NCBI GenBank assembly: GCA_963664405.1
Contig: OY761158.1
Span: forward strand, 5,536,001 to 5,600,000
DNA length: 64,000 nucleotides
Direction: 5' to 3'
Source: Thermoanaerobaculia bacterium
Lineage (GTDB): Bacteria; Acidobacteriota; Thermoanaerobaculia; Multivoradales; Multivoraceae
A program made the translations under genes and the position numbers. Below, piece by piece: positions 5,524-62,774 of the stretch. The notes beneath the pieces are model-generated. The model did no database searches, was not told the DNA's origin, and was given only the letters and a program-made list of their open reading frames with translations. The number at the start of each line of letters is the position of its first letter. Positions within the stretch are counted from its first letter, which is position 1.

Positions 5524-6615
5524 ATGTCTATTTCTAGCGTGTTGACTCTGCAAGAGATCGTGCGAGTCGCGCGGGAGAATCTGGCTCAGAAAGAGTGGGA
5601 CTATCTTGTCGGCGGCGCCGAAACCGAAACGACGCTGCGGCGTAACCGATTGGCGATTGATTCGCTCGCTTTGCGCCAGCGGGTACTCCGAGATGTATCG
5701 GAGGTGAGAACCCGCGTCCGTCTGCTCGGCCACGAGCTGCGCATTCCGGTGTTCCTACCGCCGATCGGCTCGATCCAGGTCTTCGAAGCGGGTGGAGGAG
5801 CCTCGGTAGCTCGCGCCGCCGAGACCTTCGGTTCGATGCAGTTTCTGAGCTCGGCCTGCTTACCGGATCTTGAAGAGGTGGCTGAGGCGTCGACAGCGCC
5901 CAAGGTGTATCAGCTCTATCTGCAGGGTGACCCAGCCTGGATGGAGGAGCAGATTGAGAGAGCGGTTGCGGCGGGCTATGCCGCCTTTTGCCTGACCGCC
6001 GATACCCAGGTCTACAGCCGTCGCGAGCGCGACTTGCTCAAGCGCTTCATTCCCGGTTCCGGGAGCCAGTCCTCGGCGCCGGGCGATTTTGTTTGGCAGT
6101 CACGCATGAGCTGGGACCTGGTCAAGCGGATCAAAGACCGCTTCGACATTCCGTTGGTAGTGAAAGGCATCGCGACTGCCGAAGACGCCGGTCTCGCTTG
6201 CGAGCACGGCGTCGACGTGATCTATGTCTCCAACCACGGTGGCCGACAGCTGGATCAGGGGCAGGGAACCCTCGAAGTCCTGCCAGAGGTGATTGCGGAG
6301 GTCCGTGGCCGCGCGCCGGTCCTAATCGACGGTGGTTTCTCGCGCGGCACCGATGTGGTCAAGGCGATCGCCCTCGGTGCTACAGCGGTCGGGGTAGGTA
6401 GGCTCCAGTGCTTCGGCATGGCCGCCGGCGGTGCGGAGGGCGTGGTGCGGGCCCTGGAGATTCTCGAGCACGAGATTCAGATCTGTCTCGCGCTCTCCGG
6501 CGTTGCCGGAATCGAGGACTTGGACAAGAGTCTTGTATGCCAGGGGAAGCCCGTTGCGGACCCCCACGTGCTCAGCGCCTTCCCCCTTCTCGAGCTCCCC
6601 AGATGGCGGTACTAG
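5524..6615 (+). CDS. FMN-dependent alpha-hydroxy acid oxidase/dehydrogenase
   Basis: DYLVGGAETETTLRRN, PLVVKGI, VSNHGGRQLD, DGGFSRGTDVVKA. Confidence 0.92.
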   Translation: MSISSVLTLQEIVRVARENLAQKEWDYLVGGAETETTLRRNRLAIDSLALRQRVLRDVSEVRTRVRLLGHELRIPVFLPPIGSIQVFEAGGGASVARAAETFGSMQFLSSACLPDLEEVAEASTAPKVYQLYLQGDPAWMEEQIERAVAAGYAAFCLTADTQVYSRRERDLLKRFIPGSGSQSSAPGDFVWQSRMSWDLVKRIKDRFDIPLVVKGIATAEDAGLACEHGVDVIYVSNHGGRQLDQGQGTLEVLPEVIAEVRGRAPVLIDGGFSRGTDVVKAIALGATAVGVGRLQCFGMAAGGAEGVVRALEILEHEIQICLALSGVAGIEDLDKSLVCQGKPVADPHVLSAFPLLELPRWRY

Positions 6616-6868
6616 ACCAGCGTTTCCGAAGTTCGAGTCGCATAGCTCGAGCTCATTCTGTTCGCTGGCTAGGAGCCTGCGAAGCAGGCGAGTAGTTCTC
6701 AGGCGGGGATGGGCCGGAGAACGGGCCGTAGGTCCGTTCTCCGGGGCGAGGCGCGCCGACGCAGGCATATTGGGAATCTGTCGAGGAGGGCGGGGGCGCC
6801 TAGCCAACGCTGCCAGCGGGCAGAAGGGGCCGAGATAGGTGGCGCGAACTTTGGAAACGCTGGTCTAG
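6612..6868. mobile_element. Palindromic MITE-like element, family A copy 1 (contains a nested 78 bp insertion)
   Basis: Ends CTAGACCAGCGTTTCCGAAGTTCG ... CGAACTTTGGAAACGCTGGTCTAG form a 24 bp inverted repeat with 1 mismatch. Homologous copies at 42258 and 62597. Confidence 0.88.
6669..6750 (+). mobile_element. 78 bp twin-hairpin element, copy 1 (nested in MITE A1)
   Basis: Absent from MITE copies A2 and A3. Inner 74 nt are 64/74 identical to the reverse complement of the inner part of 37880-37961. Bounded by CTAG/CGAG. Confidence 0.85.
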
Positions 6869-22755: not shown

Positions 22756-23691
22756 CTAGGGTCCGGCGCGAACCTCAGGAACGTAGGGCAGGTGGGGAGG
22801 GAAACACCCCGGTGGGAAAGCTACCTCAAGCGCCCCTTCTTTGAGCTTCTCCGCGCACTCACGATACGAATTCACGAACGCTTTGTATTCCTCTCGAAGC
22901 TTCCTGAACGCCGCTCCCGTGACTGCGTGAAAGGACGGCGCCGGCGATCGATCGAGCTCTTTGGGCTGGAAGTCCGGCACCTGCATGAGGATCCGCCTCG
23001 GTCCCGTCGGTGGCCTCCCTGTCTCCCTCTGGAGCTCGCGGCCCGTCTGCTCGCACTCGCGGAGGAGTTGCTCGATGAGCTCCAGTCTCGGCCTTCTCCT
23101 CCAATCTGCAAGACGGGGAACGTGACTCAATAGGATCGTCTCCTCGATGAGGAACTCCTCTGGTGTCAATACTTTGCCTGCTCGCCGAGCCTTGCCCTCC
23201 GCGGTCTGGTCGTGCCATATGCCGCCCGTCAGTTCTGGGTAGCCTCGTCGAATCTCGCCCACGCAGTGAACTCCTGGCCAGTCCCAGGAGTGGCGCACCA
23301 GACCCTCTTTTGGACCTTGAGAGAAGAGATACTTCAGGCGACCGATCTGCGCTTCGAGCTCGTCGGAGATGATGATGTGCTGGTAGCGCCGTTCCCAGAG
23401 CTTGCCCCGCCAACCCTGGAGGGGACCCACCTTGCGAGCGATGTTCCCGTTGACGAATCCCATGAACTCGCTGAGCTGTTTCGTACTCTCGGGGACCAGG
23501 AGCATGTGGGCGTGATTGGACATGAAGGCGAGGCCACAGATGTCGATTCCGGTACGTCTCTGACCGCGACCGATGACGCCTTTTATGGTCCGGTTAACCT
23601 CGGGCGAAGGGTGGAGGAGGTGGCGACCCTGAAACGTGCGCGTGGTGACCTCTACAAGACGATTTCTTACGCATCCTCGGATTCTTCGCAC
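22756..23691 (-). mobile_element. Y1 (HUH) transposase, IS200/RAYT-like
   Basis: N-terminal VTTR, HUH motif MSNHAHMLL, LWERRY, catalytic-Tyr region KYLFSQGPKEGLV..WDWP. GTG start at 23691 inferred from upstream AGGAGG. Confidence 0.82.
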
Positions 23692-23956
23692 CTTTATCCA
23701 GGTCCTCCTGCAAATAAAGGACGTCATTTGCGAGAAAAACCTTGCCGGTCTCTGTCGACGAAGCGAGTTGACCCTCTCGCCAGGCTGCTGAGAGGCTGGT
23801 GGGTGGCACCGGTCTCGCGAAAGGGGCATTCTTGGGCTCCGCGTGAGTTGGTGGGTGGTACCGCTCTGACTAGAACAGTGGGGTTGTGAGCGGTTGGTTT
23901 CCGGGATGCTCTGAAGTAGACTGCTGCGACTGGTCGGAGAGTTCAGAGCACCGTCG

Positions 23957-24226
23957 ATGCCGGTAGTTATCGTCCCACCACCCCTGCAAGGACCGACCGC
24001 CGGTGTCGGACGAGTGGAGGTTGCCGCCGAAACGGTCAGAGGCACGCTGGAGAGAATGGAAGGCGACTATCCAGGCTTCGGCGAGCTGGTCTTGGAGGCG
24101 AACGGCGAGCTGAGTAGCTTCGTCAAGATCTTTCGTAACGGTGAACAGGTGGACCCAGGGAGCCTCGACCAAGAGGTCGCGGCCGCCGATGAGCTTGAAG
24201 TAGTAACTGCGATCGCGGGCGGCTGA
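23957..24226 (+). CDS. moaD: MoaD/ThiS family sulfur carrier
   Basis: 89 aa ubiquitin-like protein ending AIAGG, directly before aor. Confidence 0.85.
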   Translation: MPVVIVPPPLQGPTAGVGRVEVAAETVRGTLERMEGDYPGFGELVLEANGELSSFVKIFRNGEQVDPGSLDQEVAAADELEVVTAIAGG

Positions 24227-36727: not shown

Positions 36728-37609
36728 ATGCAAGAAGCGACATTTCAAAGCAAAGTGGGTCTTGCCCGGATGCTTGCCGGCGGAGCGATCATGGACGTGA
36801 CCGACGCCGACCAGGCGCGCATCGCGCAAGAAGCGGGCGCGACTGCGGTCATGGCTCTCGAGCGAGTGCCGGCCGACATTCGCCGCGACGGCGGAGTGGC
36901 CAGGGCCAGCGACCCGGAGCGAGTGACCTCGATCCAACAGGCGGTCTCGATTCCGGTGATGGCGAAGTGCCGCATCGGTCACTTCATGGAGGCACGGGTG
37001 CTCGAGGCACTCGAGGTCGACTTTATCGACGAGAGCGAAGTGCTTAGCCCGGCCGACGAAGCCTTTCATATCGACAAGGGCGGCTTTCGCGTGCCTTTCG
37101 TGTGCGGCTGTACCGACCTCGGTGAAGCCCTCAGGCGCATCGGCGAGGGCGCGGCGCTGCTGCGAACCAAGGGCGAAGCTGGCACCGGCAACATCATCGA
37201 GGCGGTCCGCCACCTGCGCGCCCTACGCACCTCGATTCGTCGGCTCGGGACCCTGGGCCACGAGGAGCTGATGACCGAGGCAAAGGTGCTCGGCGCGCCC
37301 TTTCCGCTGCTCGAAGAAGTGGCCAACCGCGGTCGTCTCCCGGTGCCGAACTTCGCCGCCGGTGGTATCGCGACGCCCGCGGACGCCGCCCTGTGCATGG
37401 CGCTGGGTGCGGAGGCGGTATTCGTCGGCAGCGGCATCTTTCTGAGCTCCGACCCGGCGGGACGAGCCCGCGCGATTGTCGAGGCGACCACCCACTGGGA
37501 AGACCCGGCCAAGCTTGCTGAGATCTCGACCGGGCTGGGCGAGGCGATGGCGGGCCTGGAGATCTCGAGCCTGGCCGAGAGCGAGCGCTACGCGACGCGA
37601 GGCTGGTGA
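36728..37609 (+). CDS. pdxS: PLP synthase lyase subunit
   Basis: [49 protein letters not shown]. Confidence 0.96.
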
Positions 37610-38259
37610 TGCGGATCGGAGTGATGGCGTTGCAGGGGGGATTCGCTCCTCACCTGAACGCCCTCACTCGTCTCGGCCACGAGGCGATCGAGATCCGGAC
37701 CGCGGGCGCACTCGAGGAGGCCGAAGGACTCGTTCTTCCCGGCGGCGAGTCGACCGCTCAGCTCGGCCTGCTCGAGCGCAGCGGTTTGCTCGTGTCATTG
37801 GAGGCTTGGCTCGACAGAGGTGGCCCGGTGCTCGCGACCTGTGCGGGGCTCATCGTGTTGGCGAGCCGGGTACGGAGTCCTAGCCCCGGAGGACGGACCT
37901 TCGGCCCGTCCTCGGGCCCAGCCCCACCTAAAAACTGCTCGCCTGCTGCGCAGGCTCCCAGTCAGCCGAGTCTAGGCCGGCTCGACGTCGAGGTTGAGCG
38001 CAACGCCTGGGGGCGCCAGATGCACAGTTTCGAAGCGGCGAGTGATCGCCATGGTCTACCGCTCGTATTCATCCGCGCACCTCGTATCACGCGGGTTGGC
38101 CCCGCTGCGGAGGTGCTCGACACTCTCGATGGTGAGCCGATCCTGGTGCGACAAGACGCGATCGTCGCCGCCACCTTCCACCCCGAGCTCACCGCTGATC
38201 TCGAGGTCGGCAGGATGGTGTTCGGTGAAGCCGTTCTGGCCCAGCGGGCTCAGGCGTAG
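37606..38259 (+). CDS. pdxT: PLP synthase glutaminase subunit carrying a 26-aa in-frame insertion
   Basis: ALQG, PGGEST, TCAG, RNAWGRQ, FIRAP, FHPE all intact. Confidence 0.93.
37880..37961 (-). mobile_element. 78 bp twin-hairpin element, copy 2 (in frame inside pdxT)
   Basis: Reverse complement matches 6669-6750. Bounded on the + strand by CTAG (37880) and CCAG (37958), 78 nt apart. Confidence 0.85.
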
Positions 38260-42257: not shown

Positions 42258-42424
42258 CTAGACCAGTCGTTTCCAAAGTTCGCGCCACCTATCTCGGCCC
42301 CTTCTGCCCGCTGGCGGCGTTGCACCTTCTCGACAGATTCCCAATATGCCTGCGTCGGCGCGCCTTGCCAGCGAACAGAATGACCTCGAGCTATGCGACT
42401 CGAACTTCGGAAACGCTGGTCTAG
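42258..42424. mobile_element. Palindromic MITE-like element, family A copy 2
   Basis: CTAGACCAGTCGTTTCCAAAGTTCG ... CGAACTTCGGAAACGCTGGTCTAG; reverse orientation relative to A1; 167 bp. Confidence 0.88.
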
Positions 42425-58619: not shown

Positions 58620-60038
58620 GTGAAGGAATCGCCGACTCGGACTTTGGCAGTGGATTGGTCCGGCGCCAAGGCGGCGGCTGAACGGCGTATCTGGCTTGCC
58701 GAGGTTGGAGACGACGGCTTGCATCGAGTCGAGCGCGGCCGCAGCCGGGACCAGATTGCCGAGCATCTCTGTGAGGAGGCAGGCCGCGACCCTCGTTTCG
58801 TGGTCGGCCTGGACTTCGCTTTCTCCTTCCCGCGCTGGTTCCTCGATCACCACGGCTGTGGGTCGGCCGAAGAGCTCTGGCGTCTTGCTCGTAGGCAGGG
58901 GAGTCAATGGAGCGAAGAGATTGAGCCGCCCTTCTTTAAAAAGGGGAGTTGGAACGACGATTGGAATCGTGACTTCCGGTACCACTCTCCTTACCGCAAG
59001 ACGGATCTAGACGTCCCGCTCCGCCCCGAGACCGTTTTCAGACTGATGGGGCAGCGACAGGTGGGGAAGGCGTCCTTAACGGGGCTCCCGGTCCTACTGC
59101 GTCTGCGCGAGGCGGGGTTCAGCATCTGGCCCTTTGATCCTCCCTCCTACCCGATGGCGTTCGAGATCTATCCCCGGCTGTTCTATGGCCATGCGGTCAA
59201 GAAGAGTGATCAAGCGTCGCGCCGCGCGTTCGTTGACGCTACTTTTCCGTCGCTCTCGCCGAAACAGAGGGAGCAGGTGACCGTCTCCGACGATGCGTTC
59301 GACGCCGCGGTGTCTGCCTTGAGCCTCTATCGTTACCGCGAGCGTTTTAAGAGTATCGAGCGTGAGACCGACCCCCTCTTTCTCAGCGAAGGTCGCATCT
59401 GGACCCCTGAGGCTCAGCTCCAGCTCTCGATTCGCAGCGGCGCCGAGACCTTCTCAGGGCGTCTGGCCGAGGCCTTCGCGACAGCCGTGCGTCTGCACGG
59501 CGGCCAGGTTCGAAAGGGATCACCGATCCCCTACATCTCTCATCTCATGGCAGTTACAGCTCTGGTCCTCGAGCAGGGAGGGAGTGAAGAGGAGGCGATC
59601 GGAGCTTTACTTCACGACGCCGCCGAGGATCAAGGCGGGGCGCCAGTCCTGGAAGAGATCCAACACCGCTTCGGGCGTCGGGTGGCAGAGCTCGTGCGCG
59701 GCTGCTCCGACAGCCTGGAGTCACCCAAAGCGCCTTGGCGGGAGCGCAAAGAGGCGTTCCTCGAGCGCCTCCCTACCGCTTCGGATGCGGTGCTGAATGT
59801 CGTGCTTGCCGACAAGGTCCACAATGCGCGTTCCTTGGTCAGGGATCTCGAGCGCGAGGGCAATCGAGCTTGGAGGCATTTCAGCGCTTCGCCCGAAGAG
59901 ACTCTTTGGTATTACGTTCAAGTCGCCGACTGTCTCCGCCGGCGCCCCGACCCGAGGCGAGCTCCCCAGCTCGCAGAGCTGGAGGAGTCGGTCCGCACGC
60001 TTGGCGTGAGTGTGGGGAGTGGGGAGGTGAAAGAGTGA
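58620..60038 (+). CDS. Fusion of a DUF429-like RNase H-fold domain and an HD hydrolase (Mesh1/SpoT-like)
   Basis: N-terminal AVDWSG, GLDFAF, FEIYP, DAFDA, EGRIW; C-terminal RKGSPIPYISH, LLHDAAED, ADKVHN. Confidence 0.75.
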   Translation: MKESPTRTLAVDWSGAKAAAERRIWLAEVGDDGLHRVERGRSRDQIAEHLCEEAGRDPRFVVGLDFAFSFPRWFLDHHGCGSAEELWRLARRQGSQWSEEIEPPFFKKGSWNDDWNRDFRYHSPYRKTDLDVPLRPETVFRLMGQRQVGKASLTGLPVLLRLREAGFSIWPFDPPSYPMAFEIYPRLFYGHAVKKSDQASRRAFVDATFPSLSPKQREQVTVSDDAFDAAVSALSLYRYRERFKSIERETDPLFLSEGRIWTPEAQLQLSIRSGAETFSGRLAEAFATAVRLHGGQVRKGSPIPYISHLMAVTALVLEQGGSEEEAIGALLHDAAEDQGGAPVLEEIQHRFGRRVAELVRGCSDSLESPKAPWRERKEAFLERLPTASDAVLNVVLADKVHNARSLVRDLEREGNRAWRHFSASPEETLWYYVQVADCLRRRPDPRRAPQLAELEESVRTLGVSVGSGEVKE

Positions 60039-60274
60039 AAGAGTAAAGAAGTAAAGAAGTAAAGAAGTGAAGAAGTGAAGAAGTGAAGAGTAGGGAGTGA
60101 TGAGTGAGTGGTGAATAGTGGGGAGTAGGGAACTAGAACGGAAGGGCTGGCAGGTTAGTCATCCTCACCCGTGCCGTATCCCTCCACTCCAACTACTCAC
60201 TGCCTTGTTGACTACCATTCACTCTTCTTACTCTCTCACTCTTTTACTCTTTCACTCTCTTACTTCTTCACTTC
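60029..60274. repeat. Inverted arrays of 8-mer and 7-mer tandem repeats around a short spacer
   Basis: Left arm: GAAAGAGT x2, AAAGAAGT x3, GAAGAAGT x2, then GGGAGT-type 7-mers. Right arm: complementary ACTC/ACTT-based 7-mers then 8-mers. Confidence 0.85.
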
Positions 60275-60279
60275 CGCCT

Positions 60280-61679: not shown

Positions 61680-62600
61680 ATGTCACGAAAGAGCGTAGCG
61701 GCGTTCGTGTGTTTCGCGTTGATGGGTCTTCCGGTGCTGGCGCAGGCGAATAACCCGTGGACCGGGTACCCGCCGGAATTGCCGGGTGCGAAGGCGGAGA
61801 CCTACAAGACCGTCGAGGGTCTCGATCTGAAGCTCTATGTCTATTCTCCCGACGGACATGCGGCGGCTGATCGTCGCCCTGCAGTGGTCTTCTTCTTCGG
61901 CGGGGGCTGGCGAAGTGGCAATCCCATCCAGTTCGCCAAGCAGTGTGAGTACCTCGCCTCCCGTGGCCTGGTTGCCATCACCGTCGACTACCGGGTGCTC
62001 CTCCGCAATGGGCTTCCCGCACGCTTCAGCGTCGCCGACGCCAAGTCGTCGATTCGATGGGTGCGAGAGAACGCGGACCGGCTCGGCATCGATGCGTATC
62101 GCATCGCTTCGGCCGGTGGCTCGGCCGGCGGACACCTGGCGGCGTCGACCGCTTTCCTGTCTCAGCACGACGACCCGGCGGACAATCTCGCAACCAGCGC
62201 CAACCCCAATGCGCTGATCCTCTTCAACCCGGCGACGGTGCTTGCACCCGTGGCCGGCGTCTTCGAACGCGACGACGTTGAGCTCCTCGAGTGGCGGATG
62301 GGCGCGCCACTCGAATCCATGTCTCCCTATCACAACCTCGCCGAGGGAGCCCCGCCGACCCTCGTCTTTCACGGCAAGGCCGACAAGGTCGTGCCCTACG
62401 CTACCGCTGAGGCCTTTTGTGACCGTATGAACGAGCTCGCGGGGAGTTGCGAGCTCGTAGGCTACGACGGCGAAGGCCACGGTTTTTTCAACTACAGCCG
62501 GGGCACCGACGCGTTCCGCGACACTCTGATGCGTGCCGACCGCTTTCTGGTCTCGCTAGGATGGCTCGCGCCGGCCGCTGCCGCCAGCGCGGGAGGTTAG
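61680..62600 (+). CDS. Exported alpha/beta hydrolase (acetyl esterase/lipase)
   Basis: FGGGW, GGSAGG, HGKAD, GHGF. Confidence 0.9.
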   Translation: MSRKSVAAFVCFALMGLPVLAQANNPWTGYPPELPGAKAETYKTVEGLDLKLYVYSPDGHAAADRRPAVVFFFGGGWRSGNPIQFAKQCEYLASRGLVAITVDYRVLLRNGLPARFSVADAKSSIRWVRENADRLGIDAYRIASAGGSAGGHLAASTAFLSQHDDPADNLATSANPNALILFNPATVLAPVAGVFERDDVELLEWRMGAPLESMSPYHNLAEGAPPTLVFHGKADKVVPYATAEAFCDRMNELAGSCELVGYDGEGHGFFNYSRGTDAFRDTLMRADRFLVSLGWLAPAAAASAGG

Positions 62601-62774
62601 ACCAGCGTTTCCAAAGTTCGCGCACATATCTCGGCCCCTTCTGCCCGCTGCCGGCGTTGGCTAGGCGCCCCCGCGCTCCTCGACATATTGCCCAATATGC
62701 CTGCGTCGGCGCGCCTGGCCAGCGAACAGAATGAGCTCGAGCTATGCGGCACGACTCTGGAAACGCTGGTCTAG
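62597..62774. mobile_element. Palindromic MITE-like element, family A copy 3
   Basis: TTAGACCAGCGTTTCCA ... TGGAAACGCTGGTCTAG; colinear with A2; 178 bp; spans the whole gap between convergent genes. Confidence 0.88.

What the first reader, a model, noticed from the sequence alone, without database searches (positions are those of the whole stretch)
37880..37961. 78 bp mobile twin-hairpin element inserted in frame in pdxT, with a second copy nested in another element
Seen: PdxT carries 26 extra residues ([26 protein letters not shown]) shortly after the catalytic TCAG. The DNA encoding them is the reverse complement of 6669-6750 (64/74 inner nt identical). That stretch is absent from the other two MITE A copies, so the empty site is visible in this window. 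Both insertions add exactly 78 nt, are bounded by CTAG-like 4-mers and lack TIRs. Removing the insert restores RVRSPSQPSLG. The catalytic Cys and FHPE are intact. Established: Rickettsia palindromic elements insert in frame into proteins. Inference: a small non-autonomous element whose 26-codon length lets it add loops to housekeeping enzymes.
Basis: partly seen in the sequence, partly recalled or inferred. Interest (0 to 1): 0.85.

Follow-up and report, generated by a model that had tools for sequence, protein, structure and literature searches.

The report
Mobile twin-hairpin repeat inside pdxT
A small mobile DNA repeat that normally sits between genes has landed in frame inside the vitamin B6 enzyme gene pdxT, adding a floppy loop of 26-27 residues that a near-identical relative lacks; this is a new example of a known phenomenon.

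Summary
pdxT (window 37606-38259) carries an in-frame copy (37880-37961) of a repeat family with 76 hits in this 6.78-Mb genome, probably of an Acidobacteriota member. The family has an 82-nt and a 91-nt subtype. It has two conserved hairpins, no terminal inverted repeats, and CTAG at both ends.

None of 30 other PdxT sequences has the insert. A near-identical relative (186 of 189 residues the same) lacks 27 residues at this site, and contigs from two other studies skip exactly 81 nt. The insert is therefore real, polymorphic and not a misassembly.

Of 63 non-nested copies, 3 lie inside genes: pdxT, a TPR protein, and a PQQ-dehydrogenase pseudogene. About 61% of genomic CTAG sites are in coding sequence. 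Thirty copies share their terminal CTAG with a gene's TAG stop codon.

The insert models as a low-confidence coil at the rim of the PdxS interface. PdxA and PdxJ are also encoded, so this PLP route is redundant.

The mobilising enzyme is unknown. My leading guess (about 40%) is an IS91-like HUH transposase acting in trans.

This is a new family of a known kind and is of moderate interest.

The parts
36728..37609 (+). pdxS (PLP synthase subunit). The start at 36728 is inferred. The stop TGA overlaps the pdxT GTG start (GTGA).
   Evidence: ORF list; SOR_SNZ match at the corresponding genome place; used as chain 1.
37606..38259 (+). pdxT (glutaminase subunit), 217 aa, intact frame, carrying the insert.
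   Evidence: Pfam SNO 123.7 bits against a cut-off of 27; matches to solved PdxT structures.
37880..37961 (+). Twin-hairpin element copy, short subtype, 82 nt from CTAG to CCAG, read in frame as residues about 93-118.
37881..37961 (.). The 81 nt that are absent from the empty allele of close relatives (the joint is ambiguous by 1 nt).
   Evidence: joints table: X8 record 24 and X14 record 9 join 37880 to 37962. P0003 lacks 27 residues at this place.
37883..37917 (+). Hairpin 1 of the element.
   Evidence: Minimum-free-energy fold; helix 1 has 14 pairs, 6 with changes on both sides across 22 copies.
37941..37955 (+). Hairpin 2 of the element (short form, GCCTGC-TGC-GCAGGC).
   Evidence: helix 2. 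The long subtype has a longer stem on the same base.
6669..6750 (-). Second copy of the element in the window, nested in a MITE A copy. It belongs to a composite found 13 times in the genome.
6612..6868 (.). MITE A copy that carries the nested element.
   Evidence: (inverted repeat I7).
42258..42424 (.). MITE A copy without the nested element (paralogous empty site, CTTG at the site).
62597..62774 (.). MITE A copy without the nested element (paralogous empty site, CTGG at the site).

Best explanation
The 26-27 extra residues of PdxT are the translation of one copy of a small non-autonomous mobile repeat. The element has a short subtype (82 nt) and a long subtype (91 nt). Each has a left hairpin, a conserved C-rich linker and a right hairpin. 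It has no terminal inverted repeats and carries the tetranucleotide CTAG at both boundaries. Shown: its boundaries coincide with CTAG-like sites, which are three-fold under-represented in this genome. Nearly half of the free-standing copies share a boundary CTAG with the TAG stop codon of a gene. Copies inside genes are strongly depleted. Inferred: the element lands on CTAG sites, and intragenic copies are removed by selection unless the frame stays open and the protein tolerates the extra loop. That has happened twice here: the 78-nt form in pdxT and the 87-nt form in a TPR protein. In PdxT the insert lies between the strand that follows the nucleophile helix and the next strand. It models as an unstructured loop that emerges at the edge of the PdxS contact surface. 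The catalytic triad and reading frame are intact, and the organism also encodes PdxA and PdxJ. The insert is therefore most likely a tolerated, near-neutral passenger in a partly redundant enzyme, not an adaptation. How it moves is inferred, not shown. My leading model (about 40%) is mobilisation in trans by an IS91-like HUH (Y2) rolling-circle transposase. Such enzymes recognise subterminal hairpins plus a CTNG-type tetranucleotide at each boundary and make no target duplication.
For: Family and boundaries. nhmmer gives 76 hits, 60 of them full length. Among 49 non-nested full copies, the left 4-mer is CTAG in 44 and the right 4-mer is CTAG in 43. Tandem copies share one CTAG. At the nested site, 24 of 101 empty MITE A copies have CTAG. 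The hairpins are conserved through compensatory change: 8 of 24 pairs change on both sides, 87.5% of cells pair against 22-44% when partners are slid, and 0 of 500 shuffles reach the observed values.

The insert is real and foreign to PdxT. None of 30 other PdxT sequences has it. Residues 92 and 119 of the query align to adjacent residues 111 and 112 of T. maritima PdxT 2iss_D. The PdxT matches in relatives G009, G012 and G040 are contiguous across the site. The filled allele stands in whole 10,338-nt contigs of runs from two studies. The empty allele stands in contigs of two further studies and in a 189-aa protein identical at 186 of 189 residues.

Context. Of the 76 hits, 13 are nested, 30 abut a stop codon, 30 are intergenic and 3 lie inside genes. 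Genomic CTAG sites number 7502, of which 4554 are in CDS and 928 are stop codons.

Second intact in-frame case. A TPR protein carries a 29-residue insert that is absent from its orthologues in G008, G009 and G012.

Tolerance. The AlphaFold2 model has mean pLDDT 89, but the 10-residue blocks covering residues 91-120 average 60-65 and are coil. PdxA and PdxJ are present.

Rolling-circle lead. There are no TIRs. The two ends are distinct and each has a palindrome. A 16-nt right-end module is shared by this family (44 cases), an unrelated 128-nt family (31 cases) and 4 other contexts. The genome has 14 Y2_Tnp matches, 7 of them full length, including a CTAG-bounded 2.7-kb IS91-like element that is the parent of MITE A. 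Passages read in PMC13181058 and PMC3189936 state that IS91-family elements have ori and ter ends with palindromes, make no target duplication, have CTNG-like tetranucleotides at both boundaries, and give miniature derivatives that share one end.
Against: Mobilisation. None of the three relatives that hold the element (G001, G004, G008, all fragmented assemblies) gave a Y2 transposase match with the query used. The element's ends are not the ends of either resident IS91-like family. The only resemblance is a short AGCGTKTCC-like stretch next to CTAG, which I saw by eye in the sequences printed; no call scored it. CTAG on both sides is equally what a DDE transposase that duplicates TA or CTAG would leave, and two IS630-like copies end in ...GTACTAG.

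CTAG rule at pdxT. The natural empty allele lacks 81 nt, not 78, and has no CTAG at the site (CC|TCAG). No simple insertion or excision model I tried gives 81.

Age. The pdxT copy is only 85.5% identical to its nearest relative in the genome, against a family median of 98.8%. Yet the flanks of the filled and empty alleles differ by only 20 letters (11 + 9 'other letters') over the 1220 nt covered by X8 record 24. No source copy is visible.

Tolerance. In the complex model, residues 91-92 at the base of the insert touch PdxS and lie next to active-site residues, so harm to function is not excluded. No RNA or protein evidence was available.

Gene calls. The gene calls behind the context counts come from my own codon-usage caller, not from a curated annotation.
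Confidence: 0.8

Rival explanations
1. RPE-like reading: the element is shaped for life inside genes. Its length of 26 or 29 codons and its open frames let it add loops to proteins as a regular outcome.
For: Both subtypes add a multiple of three (78 and 87 nt). Three of the four frame-and-orientation combinations that are possible at a non-stop CTAG are open in the consensus. There are two intact in-frame cases, in pdxT and in a TPR protein.
Against: Only 3 of 63 non-nested copies are inside genes, one of them in a pseudogene, while 61% of CTAG sites are in coding sequence. Open frames are common by chance at 62.6% G+C. The young, nearly identical copies are all extragenic, and the intragenic copies are among the most diverged. 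The PdxT changes relative to the nested copy are mostly non-synonymous (8 codons against 3 synonymous), as expected for an unconstrained loop.
Confidence: 0.12
2. The insertion has crippled PdxT. The gene is on its way to becoming a pseudogene and is tolerated only because PdxA and PdxJ supply PLP.
For: PdxA and PdxJ are encoded. pdxT was found in only 3 of 40 relatives searched. The insert's base (residues 91-92) is at the modelled PdxS interface, next to C79 and R132/N133. An allele without the insert exists in close relatives.
Against: The frame is intact over 217 codons with no other lesion. Outside the insert only 3 of 189 residues differ from the empty allele. C79, H192 and E194 are kept. 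pdxS is intact and overlaps pdxT by GTGA.
Confidence: 0.2
3. The element is moved by a cut-and-paste DDE transposase of the IS630/Tc1 type (or the IS5 type). Such an enzyme targets CTAG and duplicates TA (or CTAG).
For: CTAG stands on both sides in 44 and 43 of 49 copies. Tandem copies share one CTAG. The element shows no strand bias with respect to the replichores (8:12 against 19:24, p = 0.79). Two IS630-like (DDE_3) copies end in ...GTACTAG. That IS630 targets CTAG and duplicates TA is recalled, not read here.
Against: DDE transposases need terminal inverted repeats and the element has none. The two IS630-like copies share only 1036 nt and their ends do not resemble the element's ends. The empty pdxT allele has neither TA nor CTAG at the site.
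Confidence: 0.22
4. The element is an IS200/IS605-derived palindrome-associated element (PATE) or a REP-like unit moved by a Y1 transposase (TnpA or RAYT).
For: There are no TIRs, there are near-terminal palindromes, and a tetranucleotide stands next to the left end. This fits the PATE definition in passages read in PMC3119063. The genome has 13 Y1_Tnp matches, 12 of them over the cut-off.
Against: None of the 13 Y1 genes lies within 5 kb of the right-end module, and only 1 lies within 1 kb of a copy. The element shows no orientation bias with replication direction. The same tetranucleotide stands at both ends.
Confidence: 0.1
5. The insert is an assembly artefact, or an ancient lineage-specific PdxT loop that only resembles the repeat by chance.
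For: None beyond the a priori possibility. The RNA fold z-score of the insert alone is modest (-1.77; 12 of 200 shuffles fold as well).
Against: The filled allele was recovered with no differences in contigs from two studies. nhmmer E = 7.8e-18. None of 30 PdxT homologues has the loop. An empty allele exists.
Confidence: 0.01

Closest known systems
Rickettsia palindromic elements (RPEs)
   Same: Both are small palindromic, non-coding repeats that can sit in frame inside conserved genes and add a peptide segment without destroying the frame (MITE review PMC10969869, passages read).
   Different: RPEs are about 150 bp, and nearly half of the 44 R. conorii copies are in ORFs (same review). Here the elements are 82 or 91 nt, only 3 of 63 free-standing copies are in genes, and 30 of 63 abut stop codons. 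Sequence relatedness to RPEs was not tested.
Classical bacterial MITEs (for example Correia, ERIC, Nezha)
   Same: Both are short, multi-copy, non-autonomous and mostly intergenic. Occasional in-frame fusions are described as 'not unusual' (PMC10969869).
   Different: This element has no terminal inverted repeats, and no resident IS shares both of its ends.
IS91-family rolling-circle elements and their miniature derivatives (IS801 miniatures); eukaryotic Helitron ends
   Same: Shared features are the lack of TIRs, two different ends with subterminal palindromes, CTNG-type tetranucleotides at both boundaries, no target duplication, and derivatives that share one end (PMC13181058 and PMC3189936, passages). 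Helitrons carry a hairpin a few nucleotides before a 3' CTAG (PMC4778049, passages), as the right end here does.
   Different: The known IS801 miniatures are 229-679 nt one-off products, not an amplified 80-90-nt family. No Y2 element with these exact ends was found, and no Y2 match was found in the three relatives that hold the element.
PATEs (IS200/IS605-derived palindrome-associated elements) and REP/RAYT systems
   Same: Both lack TIRs, have near-terminal palindromes, and have a tetranucleotide tag beside a palindrome (PMC3119063 passages; PMC3733652, search listing and abstract only).
   Different: There is no link to Y1 genes and no replication-strand bias. The tag is CTAG, not GTAG or CGTC. 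The two hairpins are unrelated to each other.

Membership tests
PdxT / SNO glutamine amidotransferase | Match to the SNO family profile over its curated cut-off. | tested here: met
   PF01174 scores 123.7 bits against a cut-off of 27. The match is split into two stretches by the insert.
PdxT / SNO glutamine amidotransferase | Catalytic Cys-His-Glu triad present, and a PdxS partner gene adjacent. | tested here: met
   C79, H192 and E194 lie in invariant columns of the 31-sequence alignment. pdxS lies directly upstream and overlaps pdxT. That these residues form the catalytic triad is recalled knowledge.
Rickettsia palindromic elements | A high share of copies inserted in frame in protein genes. 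| tested here: not met
   Only 3 of 63 non-nested copies are inside genes, and 2 of those genes have an intact frame.
Rickettsia palindromic elements | Sequence relatedness to RPE families. | not tested
   No RPE sequence was at hand. Rfam gave no match in the window, but I do not know whether Rfam holds RPEs.
Classical MITE | Terminal inverted repeats related to those of an autonomous IS. | tested here: not met
   The ends read CTAGCCCCGGAAAA... and ...GGACACGCTCCTAG, and only the CTAG is shared. By contrast, MITE A in the same genome has a 21-nt TIR and a 2.7-kb parent.
Classical MITE | Target-site duplication. | tested here: inconclusive
   CTAG stands on both sides. That could be a duplication, or one target copy plus one element-borne copy. 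The only natural empty site seen has no CTAG.
IS91-family miniature (rolling-circle, HUH Y2) | No TIRs; two distinct ends, each with a subterminal palindrome. | tested here: met
IS91-family miniature (rolling-circle, HUH Y2) | CTNG/GTNC-type tetranucleotide at both boundaries and no duplication. | tested here: inconclusive
   The tetranucleotides are present (CTAG, or CTCG in some copies). Absence of duplication cannot be told apart from a duplicated CTAG.
IS91-family miniature (rolling-circle, HUH Y2) | Derivatives share one (ori) end and differ at the other. | tested here: met
   Of 79 strict right-end modules, 44 are in this family, 31 in a 128-nt family and 4 in other contexts.
IS91-family miniature (rolling-circle, HUH Y2) | A cognate Y2 transposase in the same genomes, with matching ends. 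| tested here: inconclusive
   G000 has 14 Y2_Tnp matches, 7 full length. None of the three relatives holding the element gave a match with this query. The ends do not match beyond a short motif.
PATE / IS200-IS605 derivative | Palindromes related to those of resident IS605-type elements; proximity to a Y1 transposase. | tested here: not met
   None of the 13 Y1 genes lies within 5 kb of a right-end module, and 1 of 13 lies within 1 kb of a copy.
PATE / IS200-IS605 derivative | Insertion orientation tied to the replication direction. | tested here: not met
   Orientation counts are 8:12 and 19:24 on the two sides of the GC-skew minimum, p = 0.79. That this bias defines the family is recalled knowledge.

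The most novel reading that the evidence does not exclude
The element is a minimal bacterial rolling-circle transposon. It would be an 80-90-nt fusion of a ter-like and an ori-like hairpin with a Helitron-like 'hairpin then CTAG' 3' end, amplified to about 76 copies by an IS91-like HUH (Y2) enzyme acting in trans. It would use CTAG, and therefore TAG stop codons, as its landing site. It occasionally survives in frame inside enzymes, and it is itself the specific target of an IS110-family element. This would be the first amplified 'mini-IS91' family.
Probability: 0.3. Interest if true: 0.7.

Novelty: new member of a known kind. Interest (0 to 1): 0.5.

Why it matters
This finding gives a clean natural pair of PdxT alleles. 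They are identical at 186 of 189 residues and differ by a 27-residue loop beside the active site and the PdxS interface. That pair directly tests how much foreign, repeat-derived peptide a conserved enzyme tolerates.

It also defines a TIR-less, CTAG-bounded repeat family in a poorly studied phylum. The distribution of the family shows selection acting on insertion sites: half of the copies share a gene's stop codon, and almost none lie within genes.

If the rolling-circle model holds, the family would be a very small substrate for HUH transposases and could serve as a model for end recognition. If it does not hold, the finding remains one more example of in-frame repeat insertion, a phenomenon already known from Rickettsia and other bacteria.

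Tried and rejected
Autonomous parent. Two half-copies 3.4 kb apart (genome 6281801-6285278) turned out to be a nested copy split by an IS21-type element with IstA/IstB-like ORFs, not a parent.

Partial copies beside ORFs. The 'partial' copies that lie beside ORFs of about 380 codons are copies split by an IS110-family element, not parents.

Second IS91-like family. This family (5 copies, 414-aa frames) has unrelated ends.

Y1/RAYT link. Rejected on distance.

Replication-strand bias. None found.

Rfam. No family matched in the window at gathering thresholds.

JGI metagenome contigs. No close PdxT relative was found; the best had 54% identity. The ancestral state of the site could therefore not be rooted.

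The 'PxQ' argument. I considered the argument that the 81-nt empty allele must be a secondary deletion because it breaks the P-x-Q-x-SLG spacing. It is weak, because the loop length varies by 1-3 residues among homologues. I leave 'old insertion then 81-nt loss' against 'recent 81-nt insertion' at about 55:45.

Similarity of the TPR target to the element's left end. I judged this to be the shared CCCC plus a purine run, so probably chance.

Expression. No RNA holder of the stretch was listed, so nothing can be said about expression.

Complex prediction. PdxS with PdxT scored 0.88, against 0.01 for the best of 3 controls. That mark was reached by 58 of 80 solved complexes and by 2 of 110 mismatched pairs. 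The runs agreed in at least 83% of their contacts, and the partner's pLDDT was at least 84. This is a textbook pair with solved complexes, so the pass shows likeness to them, not that this copy binds. I used only the list of interface residues.

A copy in relative G004 (L215). Its flanks look like coding sequence, but the frame was not consistent across the element. I did not pursue it.

The search of earlier findings.

Supplementary files. None were opened. Supplementary tables of PMC13181058 and PMC3119063 (end sequences, target lists) may bear on the comparison of ends.
Full report
1. THE OBSERVATION

The window lies at 5,536,001-5,600,000 of a single-contig genome of 6.78 Mb with 62.6% G+C. 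The best named matches to an RpoB fragment are Acidobacteriota and Thermoanaerobaculia MAGs at 80-81% identity. The phylum is therefore inferred, not established.

pdxT is the ORF 37606-38259 (+), 217 aa. It overlaps the stop codon of pdxS by GTGA. It matches the SNO family at 123.7 bits against a cut-off of 27, and the match is split in two. Against T. maritima PdxT (2iss_D), residue 92 aligns to residue 111 and residue 119 to residue 112. Residues 93-118 are therefore a clean insertion.

The DNA at 37884-37957 is identical at 64 of 74 positions to the reverse complement of 6673-6746. The boundary 4-mers are CTAG/CCAG in pdxT and CTCG/CTAG in the second copy. The second copy sits inside one of three MITE A copies in the window, and the other two show a 78-column gap there.

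2. THE FAMILY

Iterated nhmmer finds 76 hits in the genome, 60 of them full length. A covariance model finds at least 66, because only 66 candidates were scored.

There are two subtypes, 82 nt and 91 nt measured from CTAG to CTAG. Their net insertions are 78 and 87 nt. They differ in the length of the second hairpin.

Neither subtype has terminal inverted repeats. In 49 non-nested full copies the left 4-mer is CTAG in 44 (CTCG in 3) and the right 4-mer is CTAG in 43. Adjacent copies share one CTAG.

Both hairpins are kept by compensatory change across 22 copies. Eight of 24 pairs change on both sides. 87.5% of cells pair, against 22-44% when partners are slid. None of 500 shuffles reaches the observed values. 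As a caveat, related sequences can exceed shuffles without any structure.

Thirteen hits belong to a composite in which the short form lies inside MITE A. Of 101 empty MITE A copies, 24 have CTAG, 58 CTGG and 19 CTTG at that site.

Related copies with the same layout occur in 3 of 60 relatives searched: G001 with 5 matches, G004 with 12 and G008 with 2 weak ones. One further Acidobacteriota MAG has 2 copies.

3. WHERE THE COPIES SIT

I called genes with a home-made codon-usage caller, which gave 5820 calls covering 87.8% of the genome. On those calls the 76 hits divide as follows:
- 13 are nested in MITE A.
- 30 have a terminal CTAG that is also the TAG stop codon of a gene.
- 30 are intergenic.
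- 3 lie inside genes.

CTAG occurs 7502 times in the genome. That compares with about 23,230 expected from base composition and about 12,770 from a Markov estimate. Of those sites, 4554 are inside called CDS and 928 are stop codons. If landing were random among CTAG sites, about 61% of copies would be in genes; the observed share is 3 of 63. I read this as selection against intragenic copies. The excess of copies at stop codons follows because a stop-codon CTAG is a harmless target. One caveat applies: an ORF that reads into the element in the frame C|TAG also ends there, so part of the 'stop' class could be truncated genes.

4. THE THREE INTRAGENIC COPIES

(a) pdxT.

(b) A 637-aa TPR protein (genome 4208226-4210136, minus strand) reads AHALAP[RNGPAAHSSAHPRLRTTRPSEFSDTLLAP]EDV. 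Its orthologues in G008 (64-70% identity), G009 and G012 align on both sides and lack exactly 29 residues. This is a second intact in-frame copy, of the long subtype and in another frame.

(c) A copy at genome 897993-898103 lies in a PQQ-dehydrogenase gene that is broken into fragments. The fragments match profile positions 202-260 and 326-495 of 595 in different frames. That gene is a pseudogene.

The pdxT and TPR copies are among the three most isolated copies in the family. Their nearest-neighbour identities are 85.5% and 84.6%, against a median of 98.8%.

5. THE INSERT IS POLYMORPHIC AND NOT AN ARTEFACT

None of 30 other PdxT sequences has more than two extra residues at this place. pdxT itself was found in only 3 of 40 relatives searched, and all three matches are contiguous across the site.

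Logan contigs of runs X1 and X4, from two studies, hold the whole 1301-nt stretch with no differences. They may include the source of this genome. Contigs of X8 (3992 nt; 20 differing letters over the 1220 nt it covers) and of X14 (1049 nt) come from two further studies. Both join 37880 directly to 37962.

The protein collection holds a 189-aa PdxT from a 2.3-Mb contig. It is identical at 186 of 189 residues and lacks 27 residues at exactly this place.

The indel is therefore 81 nt, not 78. The empty site reads CC|TCAG and has no CTAG. No simple model gives 81. Duplication of CTAG or TA, insertion 3' of a tetranucleotide, and deletion between the flanking repeats all predict 78. This is unexplained.

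Together with the age of the copy, this leaves two histories open:
- An old insertion at a CCTAGT site, followed by an imprecise 81-nt loss in the sister lineage. I put this at about 55%.
- An 81-nt gain from a source copy that is no longer visible. I put this at about 45%.

6. WHAT THE INSERT DOES TO PdxT

An AlphaFold2 model built on the 31-sequence alignment has mean pLDDT 89. Most 10-residue blocks average 90-98. The blocks covering residues 91-120 average 60-65 and have no secondary structure. They lie between strand 86-90 and strand 126-131.

In a PdxS-PdxT complex model the PdxT interface includes residues 79-80, 91-92, 132-133, 136-144, 192 and 195 (the scores and their caveats are given under Tried and rejected). 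The loop therefore leaves the fold at the rim of the interface, beside the active site, and not at a remote surface.

Relative to the nested copy, 8 codons changed the residue and 3 did not. This is what one expects of an unconstrained loop.

PdxA (352.6 bits) and PdxJ (283.5 bits) are also encoded, and pdxS and pdxT are each single-copy. This PLP route is therefore redundant. I conclude that the insert is a tolerated passenger (inference). Loss of function is not excluded.

7. HOW THE ELEMENT MOVES (INFERENCE)

MITE A (315 nhmmer matches; 127 TIR pairs about 160 nt apart) is an internal-deletion derivative of a 2706-bp element. That element is present twice at 97.4% identity. It has 21-nt TIRs and CTAG at both ends. 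It encodes a Y2_Tnp + Zn_Tnp_IS91 transposase (205.5 and 99 bits) and a phage-type integrase (150.7 bits). The genome has 14 Y2_Tnp matches in all.

The twin-hairpin element shares its last 16 nt or so (hairpin foot, GCTC, CTAG) with an unrelated 128-nt family and with four odd copies. Of 79 strict matches to this module, 44, 31 and 4 fall in these three groups.

The following features fit the IS91 family as described in passages read in PMC13181058 and PMC3189936: no TIRs, two different ends with palindromes, CTNG-type tetranucleotides at both boundaries, and derivatives that share one end. A hairpin shortly before a 3' CTAG is also the Helitron 3' end (PMC4778049, passages).

Against this model:
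- The three relatives that hold the element gave no Y2 match. They are fragmented assemblies, so this is weak evidence.
- Neither resident Y2 family has these ends.
- A DDE enzyme that duplicates TA or CTAG would leave the same flanks, and two IS630-like copies end in GTACTAG.

A Y1/RAYT link is not supported, and there is no replication-strand bias. My odds are: IS91-like about 40%, DDE about 22%, Y1 about 10%, something else for the remainder.

8. COMPARISON WITH WHAT IS KNOWN, AND VERDICT

In-frame insertion of small repeats is known. A 2024 review calls such fusions 'not unusual' and singles out the Rickettsia palindromic elements for their frequency (PMC10969869, passages read).

This family does not behave like the RPEs, because in-frame copies are rare exceptions. 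It is not a classical MITE, because it has no TIRs. It most resembles PATE-like or IS91-like hairpin elements.

A full-text search for Acidobacteria together with 'miniature inverted-repeat transposable' listed 7 papers. Judged by title and abstract only, none describes such a family. A search combining CTAG, MITE, in-frame and palindromic element listed 4 papers, none describing a CTAG-bounded family.

I file this as a new member of a known kind, of moderate interest. The natural filled/empty allele pair and the stop-codon landing pattern are its most useful features.

Noticed in passing
genome 5487767-5489297, 6026848-6028380 and 3696338-3697500 (outside the window; loci L319-L321); also L109: An IS110-family element of about 1.5 kb (372-aa DEDD_Tnp_IS110 + Transposase_20 protein) is inserted at the same point of the twin-hairpin element's right hairpin (TCGGA|CACGCTCCTAG) in three copies. 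A 99.3% identical copy sits at the same point in a different Acidobacteriota MAG. The small repeat therefore seems to be this IS's specific landing site.
   Followed up: partly
genome 6272417-6275122 and 6758844-6761549 (locus L222): The autonomous parent of MITE A is a 2706-bp element with 21-nt TIRs and CTAG at both ends. It encodes an IS91-type Y2 transposase and a phage-type integrase. MITE A keeps about 80 nt of each of its ends.
   Followed up: partly
genome 1965092-1965347 and about 30 other places: A third CTAG-bounded repeat of 128 nt ('family C'), sometimes in head-to-tail arrays that share one CTAG. It has the same 16-nt right end as the twin-hairpin element but is otherwise unrelated.
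   Followed up: partly
genome 6281845-6285234 (locus L093): An IS21-type element, with ORFs that read like IstA (523 aa) and IstB (269 aa); this was judged by eye and not scanned. It splits a MITE A copy together with its nested twin-hairpin copy. The two halves overlap by about 5 model positions, which looks like a target duplication.
   Followed up: partly
window 22756-24045 (-): A 429-aa ORF with a weak Y1_Tnp (IS200-like) domain (27.7 bits). It is one of 13 such genes in the genome, and none lies near the repeats studied here.
   Followed up: partly
genome 897000-899100 (loci L095, L230): A PQQ-dependent dehydrogenase gene broken into out-of-frame fragments and carrying a twin-hairpin copy; it is a likely pseudogene.
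   Followed up: partly
window 60015-60275: A 48-nt purine-rich inverted repeat pair (GGGAGTGGGGAGGTGAAAGAG... and its complement) with arms 165 nt apart and 75% complementary. It is unlike the rest of the window in composition.
   Followed up: no
L215 (relative G004, contig C81, 6760-6859): A copy of the element whose flanks look like coding sequence. Its boundaries are CTCG and CTAC. The frame did not carry through the element cleanly.
   Followed up: no
genome-wide: CTAG is about three-fold under-represented (7502 observed against about 23,230 expected from base composition). In my own gene calls, 928 of 2107 TAG stop codons are preceded by C.
   Followed up: partly
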